DNA of 64,000 nt, taken from positions 26,660,001 to 26,724,000 of the forward strand of contig OZ024764.1 in the NCBI GenBank assembly GCA_964016885.1. Direction: 5' to 3'. Shown piece after piece: positions 17,359 through 64,000 of this stretch. The stretch is from Eledone cirrhosa (taxonomy: Eukaryota). Every line of letters starts with the position of its first letter. Positions within the stretch are counted from its first letter, which is position 1. Made by a program: the position numbers and the translations under genes. The notes under the pieces are model-generated. The model made no database searches. It was not told the DNA's origin and worked only from the letters and a program-made list of their open reading frames with translations.

Positions 17359-17484
17359 TGGTATATATATATATATATATGTTTGTTCTTGTATTTCTAT
17401 AGAAAAGGTAAAGAAAAGAAGAATGCTCTATGTATTGTACAGAGCTATTTAATTACATAATAAACAACAGAATATAATTATTCC

Positions 17485-19839
17485 ATGCAAATAGACTTAG
17501 AATGGAAAACATTCAGACAGAGAAGAATGGATAATGAGCGTCATAAGAGAAATTGGCCAACAATTAATATTAATGGAAATCTAGAAGAATTTCATATTAG
17601 TGATATGAATGTTTCGTGTGATCACTGTGAAGCTTTGAAATTTAGAAATGAAAATTCTAACTGTTGTAATAAAGGAAAGGTTGTGTTGCCTCCATTGCAA
17701 ATATACCCCGAGAGACTGAGAAATCTCTTTGAAAGAGGCCAGGAAGCAGTTGATTTCACAGAAACATCTGCAATTAAAACTACATTTATTTCACTTCATT
17801 TGGTGTTACCACCCGGCAGAGGCCCGTATAGCTTTCATATTCAGGGTCAAACATATTACTACACCCCCACCTCTGTAACCTGCAGAAAATACACCACAAT
17901 ATGGCCAGTTATATATTATTGATGGGAACGAAGGTGTGTAGCACAGATTGGAAGTACGACCAAATAATTGTTTCTGGCACAAGGCCAGCAATTACTGGTA
18001 CTTTATTCTATCGACCTCATAAGGATGAAAACAAAGTCAACCTTGGAGGGATTTGAACCCAGAACGTAAAGGGCCATAACCCTATGCTGCAAAGCATGGT
18101 GTCTGACGCTCTACCGATACTGCCAATCCACCGCCCTAGTACCAACAAATAATGACTGCTCACCACAAAAAATGGCTATGATAAGAGAGGTGTTGCATGA
18201 ATGTTATCCATATGTCGAAGTGTACAATACAATGCATGGCATCAAACAGCAAAGTGCAAGAAGAGAAAATTGTCGTGTACAGAACTGTGAATTAAGATTT
18301 AGAAGAGGATCAGATATGAGCTGCTATAATTTACCAACTAGTAATGATAGCTGTTGTTTTGTGGGGTTTGAGGGCAGACCACCTGTACAAAGAGATATTA
18401 TCATCTTTCCTAAAGACCATCCTCCTCAGAAAATATCACATAATTCATGCCACTTGGACCTCATGACTGACCCATAATGGTGAATTTTGGTGGCATAGTG
18501 ACATGGAGAGGAATGCAGGACCTGTGTTTGCAATAGACTGACAATGCAGGAGTATTACATATACAGCATAGCATATAGAGGAGGATTTAGTGTGATATAT
18601 AGGGCAGGTAAATTATTTTAGCAGTATTTAGTGGATGCCTATATGAAAGTAGAGGGATGCAGGCTTCTATATTTGAGGAACAATCAAGCCCAATTGTGAG
18701 TGGATGAGTATAATGGTTTAATGAATTATCTAAACAGATGATAACACTGAGCCTTAAAAAATGAAGACAAGATAAGAAACAGAGAAGACATTGACAGAAT
18801 CGTGTCAGCAGAAATACCTGCATTGGAAGATGATCCAGTACTACATGAGCAGGTTTAAAAGTTTATGATCCACAGGCCATGTGGTTCTGGAAACCCTTTT
18901 CCCCCATTTATACAAAATGGATTTTTCAAAAAGAACTATCCAAAAACCTACAGAAGGGAAACATTATTGAACCTAAATGGATACCCAGAGTACAGGAGGT
19001 GCAAGACAGGAACTGCAGTGTAAATTGGATGACATTCAGTAGATAACAGGAATGTTGTGCCATTTAATGCCTTTTTGATTAAGAAATATTGTGCACATAT
19101 TAATGTTGAAGTTGGCGCTTCTGTAAAAAGTGTCAAGTACCTCTTTAAATATGTTACATGGGGCATGATTGTACATCTATAGAAGTAACGAATAATGCAT
19201 TACCTAATGAGGCTCAGAACCAACACAACCATGATGAAATAAGAACCTATCTTTGTTGCAGGTATGTGTCTCAGCCAGAAGCAGTGTCGTGTCTCTCGGA
19301 ATTTAAGCTTCATGGTACATCACATACAGTATACAGCCTAGTCACACACCTGGAGAACAAACAGAGTTTACTTTCAAAGAGGCAATGCTCAGGTTGTGGT
19401 AGAAATGCAGGGACCCTTGCTGCCTGGTTCAAGCTAAATGAACTTGCTTACACCTTCTGGGATGCCGCCTCACAAACTCCAATTATAAGCAGGATCAATA
19501 ATAATGCTTCTATGGAATATTTCAATCCAGAACAGATTATGTAATGGCACAAGATTAGAAGTAGTAGAACTGCATAAACATTTTATCAAAGCTTCTCATA
19601 TCTATGGTCCTTTGATGGGCAGGTGTGTTTTGATCCCAAGACTGAAGTTATCCCCCAGTGGTGCCAACATCCCTTTTACTTTGGAAAGACCCCAGTTTCC
19701 ATTAAGACTGTCATATGCCATGACAATCAACAAGAACCATGGTCAAATACATGATAAAGTGGGTCTGTTCCTCCCTGAGCAAGTATTTAACCCTGGACAA
19801 TTGTATGTTGCTTTTTCAAGAGTTCACAGACAGATGTAA
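17485..19839 (+). pseudogene. Decayed Helitron RepHel (copy A, most complete)
   Basis: Same motifs as 5110-7394, plus TLAAWFKLN and RLCNGTRLEV..IPRLKLSPS. Carries the same SINE at ~17976-18136. Confidence 0.92.
17976..18136 (-). mobile_element. Nin/Deu-like SINE (paralog of 5588-5748; also at ~33076-33236 and ~49846-50008)
   Basis: Near-identical sequence at the same Helitron position. Confidence 0.8.
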
Positions 19840-32483: not shown

Positions 32484-32584
32484 TGTTCTTGTATTTCCAT
32501 AGAAAAGGTAAAGAAAAGAAGAATGCTCTATGTATTGTACAGAGCTATTTAATTACATAATAAACAACAGAATATAATTATTCC

Positions 32585-33344
32585 ATGCAAATAGACTTAG
32601 AATGGAAAACATTCAGACAGAGAAGAATGGATAATGAGCGTCGTAAGAGAAATTGGCCAACAATTAATATTAATGGAAATGTAGAAGAATTTCATATTAG
32701 TGATATGAATGTTTCGTGTGATCACTGTGGAGCTTTGAAATTTAGAAATGAAAATTGTAACTGTTGTAATAAAGGAAAGGTAGTGTTGCCACCATTGCAA
32801 ATATACCCTGAGAGACTGAGAAATCTCTTTGAAAGAGGCCAGGAAGCAGTTGATTTCACAGAAACATCTGCAATTAAAACTACATTTATTTCACTTCATT
32901 TGGTGTTACCACCCGGCAGAGGCCCGTATAGATTTCATATTCAGGGTCAAACATATCAATACACACCCATCTCTGTAACCTGCAGAAAATACACCACAAT
33001 ATGGCCAGTTATATATTATTGATGGGAACGAAGGTGTGTAGCACAGATTGGAAGTACAACCAAATAATTGTTTCTGGCACAAGGCCAGCAATTACTGGTA
33101 CTTTATTCTATCGACCTCATAAGGATGAAAACAAAGTCAACCTTAGAGGGATTTGAACCCAGAACGTAAAGGGCCATAACCCTATGCTGCAAAGCATGGT
33201 GTCTGACGCTCTACCGATACTGCCAATCCACTGCCCTAGTCCCAACAAATAATGACTGCTCACCACAAAAAATGGCTATGATAAGAGAGGTGTTGCATGA
33301 ATATAATCCATATGTCGAAGTGTACAATACAATGCATGGCATCA
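32585..33344 (+). pseudogene. Helitron RepHel 5' part, interrupted at 33344
   Basis: Same as 17485-18244. The sequence resumes at 35946. Confidence 0.9.
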
Positions 33345-33892
33345 CAAATGAATATATATATATATACTACTAAAGTGTATGTAAAATTTTAAAATAAATA
33401 CTTAAATTCAATTTGTATAATTACACATACAATATGTTTTGTTGTAAAACCCTAAATAATGATTTAAGAAATGATGTCAATCTCTTTGTACAGAGAAAAA
33501 CAATTTATATATATGCATCGTGTGCGCGTGTATACTCCATTTAAGACAGCGAAAAACCTAGTACCTCCTTCAAAGAATGCCAAATAGTTTATGCCTAAGG
33601 TGTAACACTAATTAAGTTACTGGTATAGATATTTCAGTTGAACCCTGCTTCAAACATGCATATTATTATTATATATTTTCAAACACACTTACATACATTA
33701 TATTTATACACATAGAAATGTTAAAACTAAAGTATAATGATATAACAACAGTATATAATAGTTTTCTTCACTTTATTGAGATGCAATCGTTTTAAAGAAA
33801 AAACATGACAGTATAAGAAATATTTAATATGATAACATAATATTTCAGGTAGGATGGTGGTTTCTCTTTGAACTAATAATTGTTTCTACTTT

Positions 33893-34045
33893 AGGCACAA
33901 GGCCAGCAATTAACCAGTACATTACTGGTACTTTATTTTATCGACCCCGTAAGGATGAAAGGCAAAGTTAACCTCGGATCGTAAAGGGACGTAACTATGC
34001 TGGAAAGCATGGCGTCAGACCCTCTACCGATACTGCCAATTCACC
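33893..34045 (-). mobile_element. Nin/Deu-like SINE with B-box region deleted (paralog ~50708-50860)
   Basis: ACTGGTACTTTATTTTATCGACCCCGTAAGGATGAAAGGCAAAG...CTCTACCGATACTGCCAAT. Confidence 0.78.
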
Positions 34046-34244
34046 ATACAGTATAATTATACAAATATGCATATAGATAGCAATATATATACACTAATAT
34101 GTATGTACATATTTATACATATATACATATATATAGGGAGAGAGAGAGACACATGTATGTATATATATATACACATGCGTGTATGTATGTGTTTATGTAC
34201 ATTCTTCGGTATATATATATGAGTCACGGTTTATTACACATTGG

Positions 34245-34906
34245 AGACACAGAGAGAAAGAGTTGAAACGAGAGGTGAGAGAGTTGAAACAAGAGAGGAG
34301 AGAGTTGAAACGAGAAAAGAGAGAGAGAGTTGAAACGAGAGGAGAGAGAGAGAGAGTTGTAACGAGAGGAGAGAGAGAGAGAGAGTTGAAACGAGAGGAG
34401 AGAGAGTTGAAACGAGGAGAGAGTTGAAACAAGAGGGTGAGGGGAGAGAGGGGAGAGAGTGATGAAACGAGTCGGAGATAGAGTGTGAAAGAGAGAGAGA
34501 GAGGAAGAGAGAGAGAGAGAGGAAGAGAGAGAGAGAGGAAGAGAGAGAGAGAAAGAGAGAGAGAGAGGAAGAGAGAGAGAGGAAGAGAGAGAGAGGAAGA
34601 GGGAGAGGGGGGATGAAACAAGAGGGTGAGGGATGAAACAAGAGAGAGAGGGGAGAGAAAGAGAGAGGGGAGAGAAAGAGAGAGGGGAGAGAAAGAGAGA
34701 GAGAGAGAGAGAGAACGAATTGAAACAAGAGAGAGATGAAACAAGTGAGGGATTAGAGTGTTGAAACAAGAGAGAGAGGAAGAGAGAGAGAGAGCAAGAT
34801 GGAACGAGAGAGAGAGAGCGAGATGAAATGAGAGCGAGATGAAACGAGAGAGAGAGAGAGTGAGATGAAATGAGAGAGAGAGAGAGCGAGAGAGAGAGCG
34901 AGATGA

Positions 34907-34943
<37 letters not shown>

Positions 34944-35928
34944 TGAAATGAGACAGAGAGAGCGAGATGAAACGAGAGAGAGAGAGAGCGAGATGAAATG
35001 AGAGAGTGAGTGCGAGATGAAATGAGAGAGAGTGAGAGCGACATGAAATGAGAGAGAGAGAGCGAGATGAAACGAGAGAGAGAGAGAGCGAGATGAAATG
35101 AGAGAGAGTCAGAGCGAGATGAAATGAGAGAGTGAGAGCGAGATGAAATGAGAGAGAGAGAGCGAGATGAAATGAGAGAGAGTGAGAGCGAGATGAAATG
35201 AGAGAGAGAGAGCGAGATGAAATGAGAGAGAGAGGAAACGAGACTAGAGAGCGAGATGAAACAGGAGAGAGAGAGCGAGATGAAACAGGAGAGATCGAGA
35301 TGAAACGAGAGGGAGAGAGAGATGAAATGAGAGAGCGAGAGAGAGATAGAGGGAGATGAAACGACAGAGAGAGAGACAGATGAAACGAGAGAGAGAAATA
35401 GAGATGAAACGAGAGAGAGTGATGAAACGAGAGAGAGGAAGAGAGAGATGGAACGAGAGAGAGGAGGAGAGAGATGGAACGAGAGAGAGGAAGACAGAGA
35501 TGAAATGAGAGAGAGGAAGACAGAGATGAAACGAGAGAGAGAGAGAGCGAGATGAAACGAGAGAGAGAGAGCGCGAGATGAAACTCTGTCATGTAATGTT
35601 ATGGACATATCTGCCCCTGGGGCTAATAATTGTCATGTAATGTTATGGTCATCTCTGCCCCTGTGGTTAATAATTCTGTCATGTAATGTTATGGTCATGT
35701 CTGCACCTGTGGCTAATAAATCTGTCATGTAATGTTATGGTCATCTCTGCCCCTGTGGCTAATAATTCTGTCATGTAATGTTATGGACATCTCTGCCCCT
35801 GTGGCTAATAATTCTGACATGTAATGTTATGGACATCTCTGCCCCGGTGGCTAATAATTCTGACATGTAATGTTATGGACATCTCTGCCCCTGTGGCTAA
35901 TAATTCTGACATGTAATGTTATGGACAT
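34245..35928 (-). repeat. Composite satellite, reverse orientation (GA-rich block plus ~7.5 46-bp units)
   Basis: Cap GTGAGGGATTAGAGTGTTGAAAC at ~34745; 46-mers at ~35586-35928. Confidence 0.96.
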
Positions 35929-35945
35929 TGCTATCTTGTTTCATC

Positions 35946-37119
35946 TCAAACAGCAAAGTGCAAGAAGAGAAAATTGTCGTGTACAGAACTGTGAATTAAG
36001 ATTTAGAAGAGGATCAGATATGAGCTGCTCTAATTTACCAACTAGTAATGATAGCTGTTGTTTTGTGGGGGATTGAGGGCACACCACCTGTACAAAGAGA
36101 TATTATCATCTTTCCTAAAGACCATCCTCCTCAGAAAATACCACATAATGCATGCCACTTGGACCTCATGACCGACCGATAATGGTGAATTTTGGTGGCA
36201 TAGTGCCATGGAGAGGAATGTAGGACCTGTGTTTGCAATAGACTGACAATGCAGGAGTATTACATATACTGTATAGCATATAGAGGAGGATTTAGTGCAA
36301 TATATAGGGCAGGTAAATTATTTTAGCAGTATTTAGTGGATGCCTATATGAAAGTAGAGGGATGCAGGCTTCAATATTTGAGGAACAATCAAGCCCAATT
36401 GTGAGTGGATGAGTATAATGGTTTAATGAATTATCTAAACAGATGATAACACTGAGCCTTAAAAAATGAAGACAAGATAAGAAACAGAGAAGACATTGAC
36501 AGAATCGTGTCAGCAGAAATACCTGCATTGGAAGATGATCCAGTACTACATGAGCAGGTTTAAAAGTTTATGATCCACAGGCCATGTGGTTCTGGAAACC
36601 CTTTTCCCCCATTTATACAAAATGGATTTTTCAAAAAGAACTATCCAAAAACCTACAGAAGGGAAACATTATTGAACCTAAATGGATACCCAGAGTACAG
36701 GAGGTGCAAGACAGGAACTGCAGTGTAAATTGGATGACATTCAGTAGATAACAGGAATGTTATGCCATTTAATGCCTTTTTGCTTAAGAAATATTGTGCA
36801 CATATTAATGTTGAAGTTTGCGCTTCTGTAAAAAGTGTCAAGTACCTCTTTAAATATGTTACATGGGGCATGATTGTACATCTATAGAAGTAACGAATAA
36901 TGCATTACCTAATGAGGCTCAGAACCAACACAACCATGATGAAATAAGAACCTATCTTTGTTGCAGGTATGTGTCTCAACCAGAAGCAGTGTCGTGTCTC
37001 TCGGAATTTAAGCTTCATGGTACATCACATACAGTATACAGCCTAGCCACACACCTGGAGAACAAACAGAGTTTACTTTCAAAGAGGCAATGCTCAGGTT
37101 GTGGTAGAAATGCAGGGAC
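35946..37119 (+). pseudogene. Helitron RepHel continuation, helicase C-terminus deleted
   Basis: Colinear with 18242-19416, then jumps via ACC microhomology to the equivalent of ~20061. Confidence 0.9.
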
Positions 37120-40100
37120 CTAAACACAATAAAATGTCACCTGTGCTACCAAAACTACCACAGGAACTCTGTCGGCATCAGCAAGGCTCAAGCCGAAAGG
37201 CTTCAATACTAGACCTGTAATCAGGGCCACTTTACCTCCGACGACCAGCTTTCTACCGAGTGTGTGTTGATGGAGGGGACATGGGACCAGCAAAGTCCTA
37301 GGAGTAGAGACTAGTAAATAATAAACGGTCCTAGCTATGTTAAGAATATATATAAGAAAAATGTTCTATACATTTAAGAAGACAAGAGAAATAAATATTT
37401 ACCTCTTTCATGTAGGTAATATAGCGGTGTTATAAAAGTATAATAACTGATGCAGGTAGTTTGTTTCAAACTATAACACATATAACTCTATCAGTGAAGC
37501 CCTTTAGTATAGGTCAACTGGGAAACTATAACACATATAACCCTATCAGTGAAGCCCTCTGGGAAACTATAACACATATAACTCTATCAGTGAAGCCCTT
37601 TAGTATAGGTCAACTGGGAAACTATAACACATATAACCCTATCAGTGAAGTCCTTTAGTATAGGTCAACTGGGAAATTATAACACATATAACCCTATCAG
37701 TGAAGTCCTTTAGTATAGGTCAACTAACAGAAGTATTACGGGTATGGAAAAAATTCTAAATAAGCCTACAACAGTCATTGCGGGCCACTCTGACTGGTCA
37801 GGTGGGCTCGATTGTGGCCCGCGGGCCGCCTGTTGCACGCCCCTCCTTTAGACAGAATATCTATCACTGTTAAGTAATACTGTGATCTGTCGGCTAACTA
37901 CATTTCCCAGCCTGTGGCGTTTGGGGGAGTCGGGATACTGACTGCGAGATTCCTATCTTCACTGGCGGCTAGCCTGACGAAGGTGACTGGTGAAGCTCGT
38001 GAGGGCACTTGGTTGTTCCAGCTCCTCAGCCTCGCCATCGCCCGGGGTAACGCTGCAGACGTGCTGGCTTGCCTAAAAAATCATTAGAGAGGTTTCCCAG
38101 TGCTCCTCGCGATACTGTTATCTTTTGCTCTAGTAGCAGCTCGTTTGTCCACCCCTTTCGCCTGCCTTTGGTTGTATGTCGTCCTAGATGTGTGTATTAC
38201 CTGCTTGTGTGTTGTATGTGGTCCTAGATGTGTGTATTGCCTGCTTATGTGGTCCTAGATGTATGTATTACCTGCTGGTGTGTTGTATGTGGTCCCAGAT
38301 GTGTGGATTACCTGTTTTTGTGTTGTATGTGGTCCCAAATGTGTGTGCTACCCGCTTCTGTGATTTGTTGTTTCTTCTTTCTCTCTTCCGAGAAACAATC
38401 CTGTATTTTTTTAATCTATTCCATGCGTTAAGTAATTAGCAGCAACAACAAACTGATTTTCAGTTGTAAAAAGAATCTTTAAACCTTCACCATTTACATT
38501 AACACATACCATACGTTGTCCCAGCCACAAATAAACAGTAAAAAAAACTTACTTTGCGGTTAAATTCTTCACAATTAAAAGAAAAATATTTCTAACACGT
38601 TTCTAGACAACACCAAGTTTACACCTTCAATATCCGGTAAAAGTAAAAACATATTCTGGAGACATTTAACGAAACGAAACTATGTAAAGAAAAACGAAAA
38701 TTAAACGAAGACAAATAGTAAATTTTAATTTTTATTAAATAAAATACCAGTAATTCACTGCAGTAGATTTAATCAACTTTACTCTCTCTGCACGAAAGAA
38801 GAAAAAAATTCCTGACTTAGTGCTTAATATATAGAGAGGGGGAGAGTTTGGTGTTACTTCATATAGAGAGGGGTATTGGAAGAGAGTGCCGTGTAGTAGA
38901 TATAGAGAGGGAGAGAGTGTGTGCTAATTGATATAAAGAGGGGGATTTGCACCCCCCCCCCGCCTAGTAAAATTCTGAAATGCTTCGACCTCCCTGTACA
39001 TATATATATATATATAGTATACACACACAGACATATATATAGTAAATAAATGTGTGTGTGTATCAGTGGTCCCCAAACTTTTCTGTTCCACACCCCTCCT
39101 CTAAAATATGTTTATGTTCCCCTTTAATATAAAAACAATCCGAGTATTCTGAAAGTATTATTACTGTAATATAAAGTAGAAACCCTTTATTTAAACAAAG
39201 CTACGATGCAGCGATGATCAAAACAAACTTCTCGTAGGTGCTGCCAAGCGGGGAAAAGTGGATGTATAATGATGATGATATATATATATATGCCCCACCC
39301 TTGCAAACAGGGAAAAGCAGACGTAAAATGAAAATGATGATATATATATAGATAGATAGATATGTATATATATATATTTATACTTATACGTCATGGTGGC
39401 TACAGGTGCCAAGAGGAAGAAGCCGGTCAAATCCTCTGATATTTGTTTATCTTCCTTTCCTTTGTACATATATATATATAGTATGTGTGTGTGTATGAAG
39501 ATGTATGACCCCTAGCAAGCCAAACTACAGTTACTCCCCAACATGGAGAGCAAATTAAAACATTACCTGTTAGAGAGGAACGTGAAATGAATTGTTAGTG
39601 AACTACCGGTGTCACAGTAATTATGTTACCGGTGTAACTATTTCTGTTTACCTTATTTTTAAATGACACTCCTATATTAGTTTAGTGACCTTTCAATTCA
39701 AATAAATTCTTGATGATGATTGAACTCGCATCGGAGTAGCCCAACGCCTTGGCCTCCGCGTGTGTGAGCCACATAAATGCTCTCAACGACATAGTGAGAA
39801 GAAGCCTGGACGCAGCTGAATTTCCATCTCAACTGGAGTCAGCAGGCTTAGGCCGCGGAGATGGCAAGCACCCCGAGGGAATCACCCTCTTCCCATTCGA
39901 AGGAGGTAGATCCACAAACCCCAGCATCGCTGCCCGTCTCGCAGATGAGCATAAAATAAACAAATTCCGGTGTTTGTCCTGGAGCCTCTTCTAAGCACCA
40001 GCCGCCGTCGAGACCCCGGGCCAACTTGGACCCATTACAGCCGAGCTCCTCCGCAACATCGCAGTGTCTGTGGCCCGTCTGAGGATGGAGTCCCACGAGG

Positions 40101-50115: not shown

Positions 50116-50119
50116 CAAA

Positions 50120-50160
<41 letters not shown>

Positions 50161-51054
50161 TACTAAAGAGTATGTAAAATTTTAAAATAAATACTTAAAT
50201 TCAATTTGTATAATTACACATACAATATGTTTTGTTGTAAAACCCTAAATAATGATTTAAGAAATGATGTCAATCTCTTTGTACAGAGAAAAACAATTTA
50301 TATATATGCATTGTGTGCGCGTGTATACTCCATTTAAGACAGTGAAAAACCTAGTACCTCCTTCAAAGAATGCCAAATAGTTTATGCCTAAGGTGTAACA
50401 CTAATTAAGTTACCGGTGTAGATATTTCAGTTGAACCCTGCTTCAAACATGCATATTATTATTATATATTTTCAAACACACTTACATACATTATATTTAT
50501 ACACATAGAAATAATAAGTTAAAACTAAAGTATAATGATATAACAACAGTATATAATAGTTTTCTTCACTTTATTGAAATGCAATCGTTTTAAAGAAAAA
50601 ACATGACAGTATAAGAAATATTTAATATGATAACATAATATTTCAGGTAGGATGGTCGTTTCTCTATGATGGTGGTTTCTCTTTGAACTAATAATTGTTT
50701 CTATTTTAGGCACAAGGTCAGTAATTAACCAGTACATTACTGGTACTTTATTTTATCGACCCCGTAAGGATGAAAGGCAAAGTTGACCTCGGATCGTAAA
50801 GGGACGTAACTATGCTGGAAAGCATGGCGTCAGACCCTCTACCGATACTGCCAATTCACCATACAGTATAATTATACAAATATGCATATAGATAGCAATA
50901 TATATACACTAATATGTATGTACATATTTACACATATGTACATATATATAGGGAGAGAGAGAGACACATGTATGTATATATATATACACATGCGTGTATG
51001 CATGTGTGTTTATGTACATTCTTCGGTATATATATCTGTATACACATTGGAGAC

Positions 51055-51249
51055 ACAGAGAGAGAGAGTTGAAACGAGAGGTGAGAGAGTTGAAACAAGA
51101 GAGGAGATGGTTGAAACACGAGGAGAGAGAGAGAGAGAGGAAGAGAGAGAGAGGGGATGAGAGAGAGGAATAGAGATAGAGGGGAAGAGAGAGAGGGGGA
51201 GAGAAGGGGATGAAACAACAGAGAGAGGGGAGAGAAAGAGAGAGGGGAT

Positions 51250-51284
<35 letters not shown>

Positions 51285-54200
51285 ATTGAAACAAGAGAGA
51301 GATGAAGCAAGTGAGGGATTAGAGAGAGATGAAACAAGTGAGGGATTAGAGTGTTGAAACAAGAGAGAGAGAGCGAGATGAAATGAGAGAAAGAGAGTGA
51401 GATGAAATGAGAGAGTGGGAGCGAGATGAAACGAGACAGGGAGAGCGAGATGAAATGAGAGAGTTAGAGTGAGATGAAACGAGAGAGTGAGAGCGAGATG
51501 AAACGAGAGACAGAGAGAGCGAGATGACACGAGACAGAGAGCGAGATGAAATGAGAGAGAGAGAGTGAGAGAGAGAGATGAAACGAGAGAGAGAGTGCGA
51601 GATGAAACGAGAGTGAGAGAGCGAGATGAAACGAGAGAGTGAGAGCGAGATGAAATGAGAGAGAGAGAGAACGAGATGAAATGAGAGAGAGAGAGAGCGA
51701 GATGAAATGAGACATAGAGAGATGAAACGAGAGAGAGATGAAACGAGAAAGAGAGGAAACGAGAGAGAGGAAACGTGAGTAGAGAGCGAGATGAAACAGG
51801 AGCGAGAGAGCGAGATGAAACGAGAGGGAGAGAGAGATGAAACGAGAGCGAGAGAGAGATAGAGGGAAATGAAACGTCAGAGAGAGAGACAGATGAAACG
51901 AGGGATATAGAGATGAAACGAGAGAGAGAGATGAAACGAGAGAGAGAAAGAGAGAGATAGAACGAGAGAGAGGAAGAGAGAGATGAAACGAGAGAGAAGA
52001 AGACAGAGGTGAAACGAGAGAGAGAGCGAGATGAAACGAGAGAGAGAGCGAGATGAAACGAGAGAGAGGAAGAGAGAGAGCGAGAGATGAAACTCTGTCA
52101 TGGACATATCTGACCCTGGGGCTAATAATTGTCATGTAATGTTATGGACATCTCTGCCCCTGTGGCTAATAATTCTGTCATGTAATGTTATGGACATCTC
52201 TGCCCCTGTGGCTAATAATTCTGTCATGTAATGTTATGGAAATCTCTGCCCCTGTGGCTAATAATTCTGACATGTAATGTTATGGAATCTCTGCCCCTGT
52301 GGCTAATAAATCTGTCATTTGATGTTACGGACATCTCTGCCCCTGTGGCTAATAAATCTGTCATGTAATGTTATGGACATCTCTGCCCCTGTGGCTAATA
52401 ATTCTGACATGTAATGTTATGGACATCTCTGCCCCTGTAGCTAATAATTCTGACATGTAATGTTATGGACATCTCTGCCCCTGTGGCTAATAAATTCGTC
52501 ATGTAATGTTATGGACATCTCTGCCTCTGTGGCTAATAAATCTGTCATGTAATGTTATGGACATCTCTGCCCCTGTGGCTAATAATTCTGACATGTAATG
52601 TTATGGACATCTCTGCCCCTGTGGCTAATAATTCTGACATGTAATGTTATGGACATCTCTGCCCCTGTGGCTAATAATTCTGAGAGAGATGAAACAAGTG
52701 AGGGATTAGAGAGAGATGAAACAAGTGAGGGATTAGAGTGTTGAAACAAGAGAGAGAGAGGAAGAGAGAGTGAGAGCGAAATCAAACGAGAGAGAGCGAG
52801 ATGAAATGAGAGAGTGAGAGCGAGATGAAACGAGAGAGAGAGGAAACGAGAGAGAGAGGAAACGAGAGAGAGGAAACGAGAGAGAGGAAACGAGAGTAGA
52901 GAGCAAGATGAAACAGGAGAGAGAGAGAGCGAGATGAAACCGGAGAGAGAGAGCGAGATGAAACGAGAGGGAGGGAGAGATGAAACGAGAGAGCGAGAGA
53001 GAGATAGAGGGAGATGAAACGAGAGAGTGATAGCTAGATGAAACGAGAGAGAGAGGAATAGAGAGATGGAACGAGAGAGAGGAAGACAGATATGAAACGA
53101 GAGAGAGAGAGAGCGAGATGAAACGAGAGAGAGGAAGAGAGAGAGCGCGAGATGAAACGAGAGAGAGAGAGCGAGATGAAACGAGAGAGAGAGCGAGATG
53201 AAACGAGAGAGAGGAAGAGAGAGAGCGCGAGATGAAAGTCTGTCATGTAATGTTATGGACATCTCTGCCCCTGTGGCTAATAATTCTGACATGTAATGTT
53301 ATGGACATCTCTGCCCCTGTGGCTAATAATTCTGAGAGAGATGAAACAAGTGAGGGATTAGAGAGAGATGAAACAAGTGAGGGATTAGAGTGTTGAAACA
53401 AGAGAGAGAGAGAGGAAGAGAGAGTGAGAGCGAAATCAAACGAGAGAGAGCGAGATGAAATGAGAGAGTGAGAGCGAGATGAAACGAGAGAGAGAGAGAG
53501 AGCGAGCTGAAATGAGAGAGAGACAGCGAGATGAAATGAGAGAGAGAGAGCGAGATGAAACGAGACAGAGAGAGCGGGATGAAACGAGACAGAGAGAGCG
53601 AGAGCGAGATGAAACGAGACAGAGAGAGCGAGATGAAACGAGAGAGAGAGAGCGAGATGAAATGAGAGAGAGAGAGCGAGATGAAATGAGAGAGAGAGAA
53701 TGAGATGAAACGAGAGAGTGAGAGCGAGATGGAACGAGACAGAGAGAGCGAGATGAAACGAGAGTGGGAGAGCTAGATGAAACGAGAGAGAGAGGAAACG
53801 AGAGAGACGAAACGAGAGAGAGGAAACGAGAGTAGAGAGCGAGATGAAACAGGAGAGAGAGAGCGAGATGAAACAGGAGAGAGAGAGCGAGATGAAACGA
53901 GAGGGAGAGAGAGATGAAACGAGAGAGCGAGAGAGAGATAGAGGGAGATGAAACGACAGAGAGAGAGACAGATGAAACGAGGGAGATAGAGATGAAACGA
54001 GAGAGAGAGATGAAACGAGAGAGAGGAAGAGAGAGATGGAACGAGAGAGAGGAAGGGAGAGATGGAACGAGAGAGAGGAAGACAGAGATGAAACGAGAGA
54101 GAGAGAGAGCAAGATGAAACGAGAGAGAGAGATGAAACGAGAGAGAGGAAGAGAGAGATGGAACGAGAGAGAGGAAGAGAGAGATGGAACGAGCGAGAGG

Positions 54201-57200
54201 AAGACAGAGATGAAACGAGACAGAGAGAGATCGAGATGAAACGAGAGAGAGGAAGAGAGAGAGCGCAAGATGAAACGAGAGAGAGAGAGAGAGCGAGATG
54301 AAACGAGAGAGAGGAAGAGAGAGAGCGCGAGATGAAACGAGAGAGAGGAAGAGAGAGAGCGCGAGATGAAATGAGAGAGAGAGAGCGAGATGAAATGAGA
54401 GATTGAGAGTGAGATGAAACGAGAGAGTGAGAGAGAGCGAGATGAAATGACAGAGAGAGAGCGAGATGAAATGAGAGAGAGACAGCGAGATGAAACGAGA
54501 CAGAGAGAGCGGGATGAAACGAGACAGAGAGATCGAGATGAAATGAGAGCGAGAGAGCGAGATGAAATGAGAGAGAGAGAGCGAGATGAAACGAGAGAGT
54601 GAGAGCGAGATGGAACGAGTCAGAGAGAGCGAGATGAAACGAGAGAGTGAGAGCTAGATGAAACGAGAGAGAGAGGAAACGAGAGAGAGAGGAAACGAGA
54701 GGGAGGAAACGAGAGAGAGGAAACGAGAGTAGAGAGCAAGATGAAACAGGAGAGAGAGAGAGCGAGATGAAACCGGAGAGAGAGAGCGAGATGAAACGAG
54801 AGGGAGGGAGAGATGAAACGAGAGAGCGAGAGAGAGATAGAGGGAGATGAAACGAGAGAGTGATAGCTAGATGAAACGAGAGAGAGAGGAATAGAGAGAT
54901 GGAACGAGAGAGAGGAAGACAGATATGAAACGAGAGAGAGAGAGAGCGAGATGAAACGAGAGAGAGGAAGAGAGAGAGCGCGAGATGAAACGAGAGAGAG
55001 AGAGCGAGATGAAACGAGAGAGAGAGCGAGATGAAACGAGAGAGAGGAAGAGAGAGAGCGCGAGATGAAAGTCTGTCATGTAATGTTATGGACATATCTG
55101 CCCTTGGGGCTAATAATTGTCATGTAATGTTATGGACATATCTACCCTTGGGGCTAATAATTGTCATGTAATGTTATGTACATCTCTGCCCCTGTGGCAA
55201 ATAATTCTGTCATGTAATGTTATGGACACCTCTGTCCCTGTGGCTAATAATTATGTCATGTAATGTTATGGACATCTCTGCCCCTGTGGCTAATAATTCT
55301 GTCATGTAATGTTATGGACATCTCTGCCCCTGTGGCTAATAAATTCGTCATGTAATGTTATGGACATCTCTGCCCCTGTGGCTAATAAATCTGTCATGTA
55401 ATGTTTTGGACATCTCTTCCCCTGTGGCTAATAATTCTGACATGTAATGTTATGGATATCTCTGCCCCTGTGGCTAATAATTCTGAGAGAGATGAAACAA
55501 GTGAGGGATAAGAGAGAGATGAAACAAGTGAGGGATTAGAGTGTTGAAACAAGAGAGAGAGAGGAAGAGAGAGTGAGAGCGAGATCAAACGAGAGAGAGA
55601 GAGAGCGAGATGAAATGAGAGAGTGAGAGCGAGATGAAACGAGAGAGAGAGAGCGAGATGAAATGAGAGAGAGAGAGCGAGATGAAATGAGAGAGAGAGA
55701 GCGAGATGAAACGAGACAGAGAGAGCGAGGTGAAACGAGAGAGAGAGAGAGAGCGAAATGAAACGAGACAGATTAGAGCGAGATGAAACGAGAGAGAGAG
55801 AGCAAGATGAAATGAGAGAGAGAGAGCGAGATGAAACGAGAGAGTGAGAGCTAGAGGAAACGATAGAGAGAGGAAACGAGAGAGAGAGGAAACGAGAGAG
55901 AGGATACGAGAGAGAGGAAACGAGAGAGAGGAAGAGAGAGAGCGCAAGATGAAACGAGAGAGAGAGCGCGAGATGAAAGTCTGTCATGTAATGTTATGGA
56001 CATATCTGCCATTGGGGCTAATAATTGTCATGTAATGTTATGGCAATCTCTGCCCCTGTGGCTAATAATTCTGTCATGTAATGTTATGGACATCTCTGCC
56101 CCTGTGGCTAATAATTCTGTCATGTAATGTTATGGACATCTCTGCCCCTGTGGCTAATAAATCTGTCATGTAATGTTATGGACATCTCTGCCCCTGTGGC
56201 TAATAATTCTGACATGTAATGTTATGGACATCTCTGCCCCTGTGGCTAATAAATATGACATGTAATGTTATGGACATCTCTGCCCCTGTGGCTAATAAAT
56301 CTGTCATGTAATGTTATGGACATCTCTGCCCCTGTGGCTAATAATTCTGACATGTAATGTTATGGACATCTCTGCCCCTGTGGCTAATAAATCTGTCATG
56401 TAATGTTATGGACATCTCTGCCCCTGTGGCTAATAATTCTGACATGTAATGTTATGGACATCTCTGCCCCTGTGGCTAATAATTCTGTCATGTAATGTTA
56501 TGGACATCTCTGCCCCTGTGGCTAATAAATTCGTCATGTAATGTTATGGACATCTCTGCCCCTGTGGCTAATAAATCGGTCATGTAATGTTATGGACATC
56601 TCTGCCCCTGTGGTTAATAATTCTGACATGTAATGTTATGGATATCTCTGCCCCTGTGGCTAATAATTCTGAGAGAGATGAAACAAGTGAGGGATAAGAG
56701 AGAGATGAAACAAATGAGGGATTAGAGTGTTGAAACAAGAGAGAGAGAGGAAGAGAGAGTGAGAGCGAGATCAAACGAGAGAGAGAGCGAGATGAAATGA
56801 GAGAGTGAGAGCGAGATGAAACGAGAGAGAGAGAGCGAGATGAAATGAGAGAGCGAGAGCGAGATGAAATGAGAGAGAGAGAGCGAGATGAAACGAGACA
56901 GAGAGAGCGAGATGAAACGAGAGAGAGAGAGAGCGAAATGAAACGAGTCAGATTAGAGCGAGATGAAACGAGAGAGAGAGAGCGAGATGAAATGAGAGAG
57001 AGAGAGCGAGATGAAACGAGAGAGTGAGAGCTAGAGGAAACGAGAGAGAGAGGAAACGAGAGAGAGGATACGAGAGAGAGGAAACGAGAGTAGAGAGCGA
57101 GATGAAACAGGAGAGAGAGAGCGAGATGAAACAGGAGAGAGAGAGCGAGATGAAACGAGAGGGAGAGAGAGATGAAACGAGAGAGCGAGAGAGAGATAGA

Positions 57201-60200
57201 GGGAGATGAAACGACAGAGAGAGAGACAGATGAAACGAGGGAGATAGAGATGAAACGAGAGAGAGAGATGAAACGAGAGAGAGGAAGAGAGAGATGGAAC
57301 GAGAGAGAGGAAGAGAGAGATGGAACGAGAGAGAGGAAGACAGAGATGAAACGAGAGAGAGAGAGAGCGAGATGAAACGAGAGAGAGGAAGAGAGAACGC
57401 GAGATGAAACGAGAGAGAGAGAGAGCAAGATGAAACGAGAGAGAGGAAGAGAGAGAGCGCAAGATGAAACGAGAGAGAGAGCGCGAGATGAAAGTCTGTC
57501 ATGTAATGTTATGGACATATCTGCCCTTGGGGCTAATAATTGTCATGTAATGTTATGGAAATCTCTGCCTCTGTGGCTAATAATTCTTTCATGTAATGTT
57601 ATGGACATCTCTGCCCCTGTGGCTAATAATTCTGTCATGTAATGTTATGGACATCTCTGCCCCTGTGGCTAATAAATCTGTCATGTAATGTTATGGACAT
57701 CTCTGCCCCTGTGGCTAATAATTCTGACATGTAATGTTATGGACATCTCTGCCCCTGTGGCTAATAAATCTGTCATGTAATGTTATGGACATCTCTGCCC
57801 CTGTGGCTAATAATTCTGACATGTAATGTTATGGACATCTCTGCCCCTGTGGCTAATAATTCTGAGAGAGATGAAACAAGTGAGGGATTAGAGAGAGATG
57901 AAACAAGTGAGGGATTAGAGTGTTGAAACAAGAGAGAGAGAGAGGAAGAGAGAGTGAGAGCGAAATCAAACGAGAGAGAGCGAGATGAAATGAGAGAGTG
58001 AGAGCGAGATGAAACGAGAGAGAGAGAGAGAGCGAGATGAAATGAGAGAGAGAGAGCGAGATGAAATGAGAGAGAGAGAGAGCGAGATGAAACGAGACAG
58101 AGAGAGCGGGATGAAACGAGACAGAGAGAGCGAGAGCGAGATGAAACGAGACAGAGAGAGCGAGATGAAACGAGAGAGAGAGAGCGAGATGAAATGAGAG
58201 AGAGAGAGCGAGATGAAATGAGAGAGAGAGAGCGAGATGAAACGAGAGAGTGAGAGCGAGATGAAACGAGAGAGTGAGAGCGAGATGGAACGAGACAGAG
58301 AGAGCGAGATGAAACGAGAGTGGGAGAGCTAGATGAAACGAGAGAGAGAGGAAACGAGAGACGAAACGAGAGAGAGGAAACGAGAGTAGAGAGCGAGATG
58401 AAACAGGAGAGAGAGAGCGAGATGAAACAGGAGAGAGAGAGCGAGATGAAACGAGAGGGAGAGAGAGATGAAACGAGAGAGCGAGAGAGAGATAGAGGGA
58501 GATGAAACGACAGAGAGAGAGACAGATGAAACGAGGGAGATAGAGATGAAACGAGAGAGAGAGATGAAACGAGAGAGAGGAAGAGAGAGATGGAACGAGA
58601 GAGAGGAAGGGAGAGATGGAACGAGAGAGAGGAAGACAGAGATGAAACGAGAGAGAGAGAGAGCAAGATGAAACGAGAGAGAGAGATGAAACGAGAGAGA
58701 GGAAGAGAGAGATGGAACGAGAGAGAGGAAGAGAGAGATGGAACGAGCGAGAGGAAGACAGAGATGAAACGAGACAGAGAGAGATCGAGATGAAACGAGA
58801 GAGAGGAAGAGAGAGAGCGCAAGATGAAACGAGAGAGAGAGAGAGAGAGAGCGAGATGAAACGAGAGAGAGGAAGAGAGAGAGCGCGAGATGAAACGAGA
58901 GAGAGGAAGAGAGAGAGCGCGAGATGAAATGAGAGAGAGAGAGCGAGATGAAATGAGAGATTGAGAGTGAGATGAAACGAGAGAGTGAGAGAGAGCGAGA
59001 TGAAATGACAGAGAGAGAGCGAGATGAAATGAGAGAGAGAGAGCGAGATGAAACGAGACAGAGAGAGCGGGATGAAACGAGACAGAGAGATCGAGATGAA
59101 ATGAGAGAGAGAGAGCGAGATGAAATGAGAGAGAGAGAGCGAGATGAAACGAGAGAGTGAGAGCGAGATGGAACGAGTCAGAGAGAGCGAGATGAAACGA
59201 GAGAGTGAGAGCTAGATGAAACGAGAGAGAGAGGAAACGAGAGAGAGAGGAAACGAGAGAGAGGAAACGAGAGAGAGGAAACGAGAGTAGAGAGCAAGAT
59301 GAAACAGGAGAGAGAGAGAGCGAGATGAAACCGGAGAGAGAGAGCGAGATGAAACGAGAGGGAGGGAGAGATGAAACGAGAGAGCGAGAGAGAGATAGAG
59401 GGAGATGAAACGAGAGAGTGATAGCTAGATGAAACGAGAGAGAGAGGAATAGAGAGATGGAACGAGAGAGAGGAAGACAGATATGAAACGAGAGAGAGAG
59501 AGAGCGAGATGAAACGAGAGAGAGGAAGAGAGCGCGAGATGAAACGAGAGAGAGAGAGCGAGATGAAACGAGAGAGAGAGCGAGATGAAACGAGAGAGAG
59601 GAAGAGAGAGAGCGCGAGATGAAAGTCTGTCATGTAATGTTATGGACATATCTGCCCTTGGGGCTAATAATTGTCATGTAATGTTATGGACATATCTACC
59701 CTTGGGGCTAATAATTGTCATGTAATGTTATGTACATCTCTGCCCCTGTGGCAAATAATTCTGTCATGTAATGTTATGGACACCTCTGTCCCTGTGGCTA
59801 ATAATTATGTCATGTAATGTTATGGACATCTCTGCCCCTGTGGCTAATAATTCTGTCTTGTAATGTTATGGACATCTCTGCCCCTGTGGCTAATAAATTC
59901 GTCATGTAATGTTATGGACATCTCTGCCCCTGTGGCTAATAAATCTGTCATGTAATGTTTTGGACATCTCTTCCCCTGTGGCTAATAATTCTGACATGTA
60001 ATGTTATGGATATCTCTGCCCCTGTGGCTAATAATTCTGAGAGAGATGAAACAAGTGAGGGATAAGAGAGAGATGAAACAAGTGAGGGATTAGAGTGTTG
60101 AAACAAGAGAGAGAGAGGAAGAGAGAGTGAGAGCGAGATCAAACGAGAGAGAGAGAGCGAGATGAAATGAGAGAGTGAGAGCGAGATGAAACGAGAGAGA

Positions 60201-61250
60201 GAGAGCGAGATGAAATGAGAGAGAGAGAGCGAGATGAAATGAGAGAGAGAGAGCGAGATGAAACGAGACAGAGAGAGCGAGGTGAAACGAGAGAGAGAGA
60301 GAGCGAAATGAAACGAGACAGATTAGAGCGAGATGAAACGAGAGAGAGAGAGAGCAAGATGAAATGAGAGAGAGAGAGCGAGATGAAACGAGAGAGTGAG
60401 AGCTAGAGGAAACGATAGAGAGAGGAAACGAGAGAGAGAGGAAACGAGAGAGAGGATACGAGAGAGAGGAAACGAGAGTAGAGAGCGAGATGAAACAGGA
60501 GAGAGAGAGCGAGATGAAACAGGAGAGAGAGAGCGAGATGAAACGAGAGGGAGAGTGAGATGAAACGAGAGAGGGAGAGAGAGATAGAGGGAGATGAAAC
60601 GACAGAGAGAGAGACAGATGAAACGAGGGAGATAGAGATGAAACGAGAGAGAGAGATGAAACGAGAGAGAGGAAGAGAGAGATGGAACGAGAGAGAGGAA
60701 GAGAGAGATGGAACGAGAGAGAGGAAGACAGAGATGAAACGAGAGAGAGAGAGAGCGAGATGAAACGAGAGAGAGGAAGAGAGAGAACGCGAGATGAAAC
60801 GAGAGAGAGAGCAAGATGAAACGAGAGAGAGGAAGAGAGAGAGCGCAAGATGAAACGAGAGAGAGAGAGCGCGAGATGGAAGTCTGTCATGTAATGTTAT
60901 GGACATATCTGCCCTTGGGGCTAATAATTGTCATGTAATGTTATGGAAATCTCTGCCCCTGTGGCTAATAATTCTGTCATGTAATGTTATGGACATCTCT
61001 GCCCCTGTGGCTAATAAATATGACATGTAATGTTATGGACATCTCTGCCCCTGTGGCTAATAAATCTGTCATGTAATGTTATGGACATCTCTGCCCCTGT
61101 GGCTAATAATTCTGCCATGTAATGTTATTGACATCTCTGCCCCTGTGGCTAATAAATCTGTCATGTAATGTTATGGACATCTCTGCCCCTGTGGCTAATA
61201 ATTCTGACATGTAATGTTATGGACATCTCTGCCCCTGTGGCTAATAATTC
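51055..61250 (-). repeat. Expanded composite satellite, reverse orientation, with a ~4.5-kb higher-order duplication
   Basis: Seven GA-rich blocks alternate with 46-bp runs; shared diagnostic variants at ~55133/59689 and ~55403/59956. Confidence 0.97.
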
Positions 61251-64000
61251 TGATTTATTAGCCACAGGGGCAGAGATGTCCATAACATTACATGACGGAA
61301 TTATTAGCCACAGGGGCAGAGATTTCCATAACATTACATGTCAGAATTATTAGCCACAGGGGCAGAGATGTCCATAACATTACATGTCAGAATTATTAGC
61401 CACAGGGGCAGAGATGTCCATAACATTACATGACAGAATTATTAGCCACAGGGGCAGAGATGACCATAACATTACATGACAATTATTAGCCACAGGGGCA
61501 GATATGTCAATAACATTACATGACAGAGTTTCATCTTGCGCTCTCTCTCTCTCGTTTCATCTCGCTCTCCCTCTCTCTCGTTTCATCTCTGTCTTCCTCT
61601 CTCTCGTTTCATCTCGCTCTCTCTCTCTCTCGTTTCATCTCTGTCTTCCTCTCTCTCGTTCCATCTCTCTCTTCCTCTCTCTCGTTCCATCTCTCTCTTC
61701 CTCTCTTTCGTTTCATCTCTATCTCCCTTCTTTCATCTGTCTCTCTCTCTGTCGTTTCATCTCGCGCTCTCTCTCTCTCGTTTCATCTTGCGCTCTCTCT
61801 CTCTCGTTTCGTCTTGCTCTCTCTCTCTCTCGTTTCATCTCTGTCTTCCTCTCTCTCGTTCCATCTCTCTATTCCTCTCTCTCGTTCCATCTCTCTCATC
61901 CTCTCTCTCGTTTCATCTCTATCTCCCTCCTTTCATCTGTCTCTCTCTCTGTCGTTTCATCTCGCGCTCTCTCTCTCTCGTTTCATCTTGCGCTCTCTCT
62001 CTCTCGTTTCATCTCGTTCTCTCTCTCGTTTCATCTCTGTCTTCCTCTCTCTCGTTCCATCTCTCTCTTCCTCTCTCTCGTTCCATCTCTCTCTTCCTCT
62101 CTCTCGTTTCATCTCTATCTCCCTTCTTTCATCTGTCTCGCTCTCTGTCGTTTCATCTCGCGCTCTCTCTCTCTCGTTTCATGTCGCGCTCTCTCTCTCT
62201 CGTTTCATCTCGCTCTCTCTCTCTCGTTTCATCTCTGTCTTCCTCTCTCTCGTGCCATCTCTCTCTTCCTCTCTCTCTTCCTCTCTCTCGTTTCATCTCT
62301 ATCTCCCTTGTTTCATCTCTCTCTCGCTCTCTCGTTTCATCTCTCTCTCCCTCTCGTTTCATCTCGCTCTCTCTCTCCTGTTTCATCTCGCTCTCTCTCT
62401 CTCGTTTCATCTCTGTCTTCCTCTCTCTCGTTCCATCTCTGTCTTCCTCTCTCTCGTTCCATCTCTCGCTTCCTCTCTCTCGTTTCATCTCGCTCTCCCT
62501 CGTTTCATCTCTCTCTCGCTCTCTCGTTTCATCTCTCTCTCCCTCTCATTTCATCTCGCTCTCTCTCTCCTGTTTCATCTGGCTCTCTCTCTCTCCTGTT
62601 TCATCTCGCTCTCTACTCTCGTTTCCTCTCTCTCTCTCGTTTCATCTCTCTCTCCCTCCCGTTTCATCTCGCTCTCTCTCTCTCATTTCATCTCGCTCTC
62701 TCTCTCTCGTTTCATCTCGCTCTCCCTCTCTCGTTTCATCCCGCTCTCACTCTCTCATTTCTTCTCGCTCTCTCTCTCTTGTTTCAACACTCTAATCCCT
62801 CACTTGTTTACTATCTCTCAGAATTATTAGCCACAGGGGCAGAGATGACCATAACATTACATGTCAGAATTATTAGCCACAAGGGCAGAGATGTCCATAA
62901 CATTACATGACAGAATTATTAGCCACAGGGGCAGATATGTCAATAACATTACATGGCAGAGTTTCATCTCGCGCTCTCTCTCTCTCGTTTCATCTTGCGC
63001 TCTCTCTCTCTCTCGTTTCATCTTGCTCTCTCTCTCGTTTCATCTCTGTCTTCCTCTCTCTCGTTCCATCTCTCTCTTCCTCTCTCTCGTTCCATCTCTC
63101 TCATCCTCTCTCTCGTTTCATCTCTATCTCCCTCCTTTCATCTGTCTCTCTCTCTGTCGTTTCATCTCGCGCTCTCTCTCTCTCTCGTTTCATCTCGCGC
63201 TCTCTCTGTCTCGTTTCATCTCGCTCTCTCTCTCTCTCGTTTCATCTCTGTCTTCCTCTCTCTCGTTCCATCTCTCTCTTCCTCTCTCTCGTTCCATCTC
63301 TCTCTTCCTCTCTCTCGTTTCATCTCTATCTCCCTCGTTTCATCTCTCTCTCGCTCTCTTGTTTCATCTCTCTCTCTCGCTCTCTCTCTCCTGTTTCATC
63401 TCGCTCTCTACTCTCGTTTCCTCTCTCTCGTTTCCTCTCTGTCTCGTTTCATCTCGCTCTCTCTCTTTCTCGTTTGATCTCGCTCTCACTCTCTCGTTTC
63501 ATCTCGCTTCTCTCACTCTCTTGATTCATCTCGCTCTCTCTCTCTCTTGTTTCAACACTCTAATCCCTCACTTGTTTTATCTCTCTCTAATCCCTCACTT
63601 GGTTCATCTCTCTCAGAATTATTAGCCACAGGAGCAGAGATGTCCATAACATTACATGTCAGAATTATTAGCCACAGGGCAGAGATGTCCATAACATTAC
63701 ATGTCAGAATTATTAGCCACTGGGGCAGAGATGTCCATAACATTACATGTCAGAATTATTAGCCACAGGGGTAGAGATGTCCATAACATTACATGTCAGA
63801 ATTATTAGCCACAGGGGCAGAGATGTCCATAACATTACATGACAGAATTATTAGCCACAGGGGCAGTGATGTCCATAACATTACATGACAATTATTAGCC
63901 CCAAGGGCAGATATGTCCATAACATTACATGACAGAGTTCCATCTCGCGCTCTCTCTCTTCCTCTCTCTCGTTTCATCTCGCTCTCTCTCTCTCTCGTTT
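61251..64000 (+). repeat. Composite satellite, forward orientation, running off the window
   Basis: Strand switch at GGCTAATAA-TTCTGAT-TTATTAGCC; CT blocks at ~61526-62818 and ~62959-63613. Confidence 0.97.

What the first reader, a model, noticed from the sequence alone, without database searches (positions are those of the whole stretch)
33345..35945. Satellite-seeding cassette inserted at an exact Helitron position, then massively expanded in the sister copy
Seen: the Helitron stops at GGCATCA (33344) and resumes at TCAAACAGC (35946) with no loss and TCA duplicated; empty sites are at ~5850 and ~18238. The insert carries one GA block and ~7.5 46-mers. The same left junction at 50115 leads into >12.9 kb of the satellite. 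No TIRs, poly(A) or ORF are visible. Inference: a non-canonical mobile or captured module that delivers a satellite seed which then expands in place, so empty, seeded and expanded states all appear in one window.
Basis: partly seen in the sequence, partly recalled or inferred. Interest (0 to 1): 0.78.

Follow-up and report, generated by a model that had tools for sequence, protein, structure and literature searches.

The report
Repair patch that seeded a satellite
A 2.6-kb patchwork of other repeats sits at one exact spot in a dead Helitron transposon and recurs about 118 times in this genome, with the same surroundings in every copy examined, so it is likely a one-off DNA-repair patch copied along with its host repeat rather than a mobile element, and the long satellite arrays attached to many copies likely grew from it through later rearrangements.

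Summary

The insert (33345-35945) interrupts a decayed Helitron Rep fragment. Its diagnostic internal junction occurs 118 times, on four contigs. All 38 body-anchored copies checked share the same Helitron left flank.

The insert is a mosaic: two internal pieces of an unrelated ~6.2-kb repeat, a SINE, a GA block, 46-mers and an inverted templated filler, joined at 2-4 bp microhomologies. These microhomologies also explain the "TCA duplication".

The array at 50115 runs 24 kb, folds back at 61254 and never resumes at TCAAACAGC. It rejoins the host 937 bp upstream. 43 of 44 right junctions close a single-block insert; the 44th lies across an assembly gap. Short and long forms are sister lineages.

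Best reading: one repair patch, co-amplified with a host macrosatellite, followed in one lineage by unit duplication, fold-back and new exits. The mechanisms are known; this is a well-preserved case.

The parts
32564..33344 (+). Host: 5' part of a decayed Helitron Rep fragment, including an older SINE at 33063-33231; ends at the left junction
   Evidence: continuous with 35946 onward in the empty copies at 5850 and 18238
33345..33653 (+). Piece 1: internal fragment of another repeat (family X, ~6.2-kb tandem unit on C22; also C24 and C18:33.63 Mb); 2-bp microhomology CA with the host
   Evidence: 96.4% to the C18 donor, 88-89% to the C22/C24 donors; donor sequence continues on both sides
33654..33868 (+). 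Piece 2: a second internal fragment of family X from ~2 kb further along the unit; joined at a 4-bp microhomology plus one extra base; internal deletion against the donors
   Evidence: junction found 118 times, the 100 listed all in host clusters
33869..34257 (+). Piece 3: tRNA-like SINE (33875-34045, minus strand) plus TA-rich tract; lies upstream of piece 2 in a C24 donor, so the donor order is scrambled
   Evidence: SINE depth 10^3 to 10^5 times the flank in public contigs
34258..35584 (+). GA-rich block with a 27-bp head motif at ~34735; a similar GA block without 46-mers lies ~800 bp downstream of piece 1 in the C18:33.63 Mb donor
35585..35928 (+). 46-bp minisatellite, 7.5 copies (5-35 in other short copies)
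35929..35947 (-). Inverted templated filler at the right junction: 15-bp exact match to the reverse strand of the host at ~31880, 13-bp match to the GA head; last two bases (TC) shared with the host
   Evidence: 0 of 2000 shuffles reach 15 bp, 9 of 2000 reach 13 bp
35946..37120 (+). Host Helitron fragment resumes with no loss
50116..64000 (+). Long sister copy: same left junction, then tandem [GA block + 46-mers] units; continues to ~74,197 (24 kb) and exits into host 937 bp upstream of the junction
61190..61320 (.). Fold-back centre of the long array: near-perfect hairpin with a 7-nt loop; the same junction occurs in 15 fetched arrays, in both orientations
   Evidence: z = -21
1..4068 (.). 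Tail of the previous long copy (19.8 kb): minus arm, second inversion at ~3839, exit into host 1,837 bp upstream of the junction position
5850..5862 (+). Empty site, reached through the exit of the long array at 4068
18238..18250 (+). Empty site

Best explanation
The insert is a mosaic of pieces from other repeats joined at 2-4 bp microhomologies and found at one host position only; it is likely a single templated repair patch (polymerase-theta-like end joining or microhomology template switching) that was then likely copied passively with its host macrosatellite, with the long arrays likely arising later in a sister lineage. Step 1 (inferred): a break in a dead Helitron fragment inside an 8-17 kb tandem unit was filled by copying pieces of repeat family X, a GA block and 46-mers, and closed with a short inverted filler. 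Step 2 (shown as a pattern): the filled unit occurs about 118 times in clusters on C1, C18, C20 and C25, beside 128 empty sites, some in clusters with no insert at all. Step 3 (junctions shown, order inferred): in one lineage the [GA block + 46-mers] unit was tandemly duplicated at a GA microhomology (708 such junctions), folded back on itself, and rejoined the host at new points 850, 937 or 1,837 bp upstream. This lost the original right junction and gave 1.6-29 kb arrays. The upstream exits fit aborted gap repair, in which a broken empty copy copies from a filled one (inferred).
For: Same left flank in 20 of 20 and 18 of 18 body-anchored copies. The 12 different-flank sites are donors that share only piece 1. 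Donor junction comparison shows microhomologies and a scrambled order. The filler has a 15-bp inverted template nearby, reached by 0 of 2000 shuffles. 43 of 44 right junctions lie 2.1-3.3 kb from the cassette, and the 44th lies across an N gap. Of 42 left junctions followed in fetched sequence, 9 end in the original right junction (all with 0 unit junctions), 16 in upstream exits, 15 run off and 2 hit gaps. In the left-flank tree (79 rows), 52 of 54 filled rows fall in one group (support 93/85, not starred) holding a long clade and a short clade, against empty-only clusters on C23/C24. A 17-bp duplication absent from donors is in 29 of 29 non-right-junction copies and 2 of 13 right-junction copies. 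Short templated inverted insertions at breaks are described in PMC11724301 (abstract seen).
Against: No donor was found for the 46-mer or for the GA-to-46-mer joint, so part of the mosaic may have been assembled before the insertion. Donor identity is 88-96% while copies differ by about 1%, so the true donor copy was not found. The trees are shallow, with many open forks and some recombinants: the short label needs 3-4 changes and the long label 5-6. The 17-bp site is an imperfect marker, because 6 long copies carry the donor base in the first repeat while short copies carry the derived base. The different-flank search catches only donors without G at one position and with conserved ends, and 18 of 118 junction sites were not listed.
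Confidence: 0.75

Rival explanations
1. The mosaic and a multi-unit array were assembled earlier at a donor locus that is now lost or unassembled. One event captured several units, and the short form is a collapse between 46-mer blocks that kept both junctions.
For: A GA block lies ~800 bp from piece 1 in the closest donor, C18:33.63 Mb. Long arrays do collapse: four 1.6-kb exit-A copies exist on C18. A public contig under a second organism label spans the piece 1/2 junction and carries long-type alleles (record 15).
Against: No two-unit intermediate with the original right junction was seen: 43 of 44 lie within single-block distance, and 9 of 9 read through have no unit junction. Cluster spans times observed densities give ~4,240 cores against 4,327 counted, leaving little room for a free array in this assembly (rough).
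Confidence: 0.12
2. A long form with an upstream exit was the original event (a tandem duplication with a templated insert), and the short form arose later by a rejoin that landed exactly on the original breakpoint.
For: Tandem duplications with templated inserts are common products of break repair (established knowledge). Many short copies on C25 are identical in the cassette and carry derived bases against the donors at 2 of 3 substitution sites in piece 1.
Against: It needs a rejoin within ~3 bp of the old breakpoint, whereas the three other exits lie 850-1,837 bp away. Right-junction copies on C18, C20 and three parts of C25 are about as diverged in their right flank as the empty copies beside them.
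Confidence: 0.08
3. A non-canonical mobile element (HINE-like or other) that targets this Helitron position and delivers a satellite seed, which then expands in place.
For: About 118 copies on four contigs; exact insertion point; 46-mer number varies from 5 to 35 between intact junctions. Helentron-derived elements do carry tandem arrays in oyster (PMC7492417, passages seen).
Against: Filled copies share flank substitutions and nearly all form one group, which points to inheritance and not to repeated targeting. The left end is the middle of another repeat. There are no subterminal repeats. Long arrays lack the right end. The remote 46-mer piece on C7 and the left end of the C1 block break inside the satellite, not at cassette ends.
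Confidence: 0.03
4. The long palindromic arrays or the copy numbers are assembly artefacts.
For: There are N gaps inside two arrays, and one of them falsely joins a long array to a right junction.
Against: The same fold-back and exit junctions recur on three to four contigs in copies that differ by substitutions. Public contigs hold the piece 1/2 junction.
Confidence: 0.02

Closest known systems
Templated insertions at breaks (TMEJ / MMBIR / fold-back; e.g. PMC11724301, abstract seen; PMC8421209, search listing)
   Same: Multi-piece insert, 2-4 bp microhomologies, short inverted filler templated nearby, internal fragments of donors, no termini.
   Different: Here the product is 2.6 kb, germline-fixed and amplified about 118-fold, and it carries a satellite unit.
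Inverted triplication / ODIRA / DUP-TRP/INV-DUP (PMC10766183, PMC11293582; search listings with abstract starts)
   Same: Plus-minus(-plus) arrays with a hairpin centre, small loop and microhomology switches.
   Different: It occurs inside a satellite. The arms kept expanding separately and are no longer mirror images. Replication-origin dependence was not tested.
Co-amplification of tandem repeats with flanking transposon debris (rye pSc200/pSc250, PMC4857426, abstract seen); macrosatellites carrying satellite blocks (D4Z4 with beta satellite, recalled)
   Same: Satellite blocks spread as passengers of larger tandem units by unequal and illegitimate recombination.
   Different: Here the first insertion, its empty site and its donors are all still readable.
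HINE / Helentron elements carrying satellite arrays (oyster Cg_HINE, PMC7492417, passages seen; Drosophila DINE-1, recalled)
   Same: Left module, microsatellite-like tract, central tandem array; link to Helitron DNA.
   Different: The Helitron is the target and not the carrier; no subterminal repeats; one insertion site instead of many.

Membership tests
HINE/Helentron non-autonomous element | 11-12 bp subterminal inverted repeats in the left and right modules | tested here: not met
   Longest inverted match 5 bp and longest direct match 6 bp between the 80-bp ends; feature from PMC7492417
HINE/Helentron non-autonomous element | Many independent insertion sites, TT preference | tested here: not met
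   One host site in 38 of 38 body-anchored copies; the site is not TT
HINE/Helentron non-autonomous element | 3' palindrome in the right module | not tested
   The right end is only ~17 bp of filler after the last 46-mer; it was not folded
Any transposable element (MITE, SINE, LINE-mobilised) | Fixed element termini with varied flanks | tested here: not met
   The left end is internal to family X; four different right exits
Any transposable element (MITE, SINE, LINE-mobilised) | True target-site duplication or poly(A) tail | tested here: not met
   The TCA overlap is explained by donor-shared CA and template-shared TC; no tail
Templated repair insertion (TMEJ/MMBIR type) | Short microhomology at the junctions | tested here: met
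   CA (left), 4 bp plus 1 extra base (piece 1/2), TC (right); GT, CT and 4 bp at the three later exits. The GA-to-46-mer joint could not be tested: no donor found
Templated repair insertion (TMEJ/MMBIR type) | Insert copied from identifiable templates, often inverted or scrambled | tested here: met
   Family X pieces out of donor order; 15-bp inverted filler, 0 of 2000 shuffles
Templated repair insertion (TMEJ/MMBIR type) | Single origin | tested here: met
   Shared junctions and near-monophyly of filled flanks, with moderate support and some recombinants
Templated repair insertion (TMEJ/MMBIR type) | Dependence on polymerase theta or BIR enzymes | not testable with these tools
   Historic event
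Inverted triplication (ODIRA-like) | Hairpin centre with short loop and a second switch back to the first orientation | tested here: met
   7-nt loop, one centre junction in 15 arrays, second switch in 4; exit-B and exit-D arrays have no second switch
Helitron (host) | Rep-helicase coding similarity | tested here: met
   tblastn E 6e-23, 41% identity, broken frames; Pfam found no Helitron family in the fragments; element ends not sought

The most novel reading that the evidence does not exclude
A whole composite satellite family (4,327 exact 46-mer cores, 708 unit junctions, roughly 1 Mb by estimate) was born from one DNA-repair patch inside a macrosatellite. Donors, empty site, single-unit patch, first tandem duplication, fold-back and gap-repair-like exits are all still present in one genome: a readable record of satellite birth by repair capture rather than by transposition.
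Probability: 0.45. Interest if true: 0.5.

Novelty: new member of a known kind. Interest (0 to 1): 0.3.

Why it matters
It is not a new mobile element. Its value is as a case study. Satellite origins are usually erased, whereas here the empty site, the donors, the single-unit state and each later junction can be ordered, and copies can be compared across individuals and a related species. It is also a caution: 'empty, seeded and expanded' states in one window, and a 3-bp 'target duplication', can come from segmental co-amplification and microhomology alone.

Tried and rejected
1. Long array closed by the original right junction (C20, ~27.045 Mb). First read as in-place expansion; rejected because a run of N lies between them.
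2. C25:14.7 Mb and 29.09 Mb copies as older donors. Rejected: they are deletions across the left junction with the same host upstream.
3. A 10-bp microhomology for the C7 46-mer piece. Rejected after comparison with intact SINE copies: about 10 bp of SINE is replaced by 134 bp of satellite with only 1-2 shared bases. The direction of that copy is unresolved.
4. Pfam on 12 host fragments found no Helitron family; tblastn was needed.
5. Rfam gave only TA-rich matches below the gathering score.
6. DNA searches return only the best 40 and were saturated by identical copies. About 97 of 197 mid-cassette matches were not listed.
7. Public contigs of runs X1, X2 and X3 cover the empty site and the 46-mers, but no listed piece covers the filler at 35929-35945; X6 laid nothing. 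The tool warns that a hole proves nothing, so this is not used as evidence. The 46-mer-to-GA-head loose ends in X2 and X3 are under 31 letters and are weak. X1 may be the assembly's own sample.
8. No RNA holder was listed.
9. Family X has no convincing ORF.
10. Paper searches for octopus + satellite DNA + Helitron (4 papers) and for origin of satellite DNA + templated insertion + double-strand break (1 paper) showed no description of this family in their listings. Subscription journals are not covered and no supplements were read.
11. Earlier scan notes: none for this genome.

Full report
Setting. The window is G000:C25:26,660,001-26,724,000 in a 3.0-Gb animal assembly. The SINEs recall those of octopuses (from memory, not tested). 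Self-BLAST shows the window is built from repeated 12-17 kb host units with nested 2.6-kb units, flanked by a composite GA/46-mer satellite at 1-4068 and from ~51,050.

1. Observation. All stated coordinates are right. The host is a broken Helitron Rep fragment (41% identity, E 6e-23; Pfam found no Helitron family in 12 fragments). No terminal repeats or tail exist.

2. Copies and flanks. Genome-wide counts are: cassette body 112 exact, left junction 99 exact, piece 1/2 junction 118 at up to 1 mismatch, right junction 44 exact, and empty site 128 at up to 1 mismatch. Filled copies cluster at C25 (14.7, 26.5-28.0 and 28.6-29.1 Mb), C18 (25.0-25.1 and 34.9-35.8 Mb), C20 (26.8-27.2 Mb) and C1 (212.6 Mb). 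Lists stop at 100 rows, so 12, 18 and 28 sites were unlisted. All 20 best DNA hits and all 18 copies picked from the other clusters have the same Helitron left flank; four more have lost the junction by one shared deletion. Empty sites also form tandem clusters on C23 and C24 where no cassette match was listed. Six such stretches share the host unit and hold no 46-mer. The host is therefore a macrosatellite older than the insert.

3. What the insert is made of. A pattern that excludes the Helitron flank found 12 sites. All 12 match only the first 309 bp or less of the cassette body and run on into unrelated sequence on both sides. They belong to another repeat, family X, with a ~6.2-kb tandem unit on C22. 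Piece 2 comes from ~2 kb further along X, and piece 3 lies upstream of piece 2 in a C24 donor. The closest donor of piece 1 (96.4%, C18:33.63 Mb) has a GA block ~800 bp downstream but no 46-mers. The joints show 2-4 bp microhomology. The ~19-bp filler before the host resumes has a 15-bp exact inverted match 1.46 kb upstream of the break in the host and a 13-bp match to the GA head; 0 of 2000 shuffles reach 15 bp. The donor supplies CA on the left and the template supplies TC on the right, so the TCA overlap needs no target duplication. This anatomy is that of templated break repair (PMC11724301, abstract seen; otherwise established knowledge), not of an element with ends.

4. The long arrays. 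The array from 50115 runs 24.06 kb, reverses strand at a hairpin at 61254 (7-nt loop) and rejoins the host 937 bp upstream of the junction, then meets another left junction. The array ending at 4068 reverses twice and rejoins 1,837 bp upstream. A third exit, ~850 bp upstream, occurs on C18. Of 42 left junctions followed in fetched sequence, 9 end at the original right junction (2.1-3.0 kb, no unit junction), 9 at exit A (1.6-26.9 kb), 6 at exit B (15-29 kb), 1 at exit D (25 kb), 15 run off and 2 hit gaps. From coordinates, 43 of 44 right junctions lie 2.1-3.3 kb from a cassette; the exception spans an N gap. One fold-back junction is shared by 15 arrays, 10 in one orientation and 5 in the other. 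Between intact junctions only the 46-mer count changes (5-35 in 13 copies).

5. Order of events. In the left-flank tree (79 rows), empty-only clusters lie outside and 52 of 54 filled rows form one group (93/85) with a long clade (99/94) and a short clade (88/86), with some recombinants. The cassette tree agrees. Each lineage has its own derived characters: a 17-bp duplication in 29 of 29 non-right-junction and 2 of 13 right-junction copies, and a 5-bp deletion in 10 of 13 right-junction copies. So the copy at 33345 is a sister of the one at 50115, not its seed. The right junction is most simply the original one, since it alone rejoins at the entry point. Every later unit starts at one 46-mer-to-GA-head joint (708 exact) that the short form lacks, so a single-unit state came first; whether that duplication happened before or after the insertion is not shown. 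The upstream exits, usually followed by an empty site, fit aborted gap repair from a filled into an empty copy (inference).

6. How much of the satellite this explains. The 32-bp 46-mer core occurs 4,327 times. Cluster spans times observed densities give ~4,240 (rough). Among the first 100 listed, the only outlier is a 134-bp piece inside a SINE on C7, without the cassette. The C1 block begins inside the satellite, joined to a LINE-like sequence. Satellite pieces and host blocks move, but not as the cassette. A public contig under a second organism label spans the piece 1/2 junction with long-type alleles, so the mosaic is not private to this assembly.

7. Comparison and verdict. It works like a templated repair insertion followed by co-amplification (rye, PMC4857426, abstract seen) and inverted-duplication events (PMC10766183, PMC11293582, listings). 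It fails membership of HINE-type carriers (PMC7492417, passages seen) on termini and on site diversity. It is a new member of known kinds. The part still worth attention is that a satellite of perhaps 1 Mb appears traceable to one patch; the source of the 46-mer remains unknown. Interest 0.3.

Noticed in passing
window 14576-17452 (-): Open 957-aa LINE frame with endonuclease, reverse transcriptase (PF00078, E 7e-32) and PHD finger. A 97.5% copy sits at another position of the host unit on C23 (L141), so the family is young.
   Followed up: partly
window 27678-28389, 30272-30983, 44380-45180, 47074-47785: Arrays of an 89-bp unit made of two hairpin-like halves that also match themselves on the reverse strand, inside the 2.6-kb repeat.
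   Followed up: no
window ~31855-31900 and its copies: A short element with a hAT-like end (recalled) contains the same GAGATGAAAC motif as the GA satellite block and as the right-junction filler; it may be a template for one or both.
   Followed up: partly
L119 9764-9897 (G000:C7:42172764-42172897): About three 46-mers, up to 98% identical to the window's, replace ~10 bp of a tRNA-like SINE: a separate small capture of the satellite.
   Followed up: partly
G000:C22:17.73-17.77 Mb (L082-L089): Family X: ~6.2-kb tandem repeat with internal long inverted repeats and no convincing ORF.
   Followed up: partly
G000:C23 8.6, 15.2, 17.5 Mb; C24 3.8, 5.5 Mb: Tandem clusters (8.2-8.6 kb and ~16 kb spacing) of the empty host unit; with family X and regularly spaced Helitron hits on C20, C19 and C27, the small contigs look rich in transposon-derived macrosatellites.
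   Followed up: partly
L059 (C20, ~27.07 Mb): In this C20 short copy the TA run just after the left junction is replaced by a short ATG-repeat-bearing piece; eight C20 copies align only from base 20 of the cassette.
   Followed up: no
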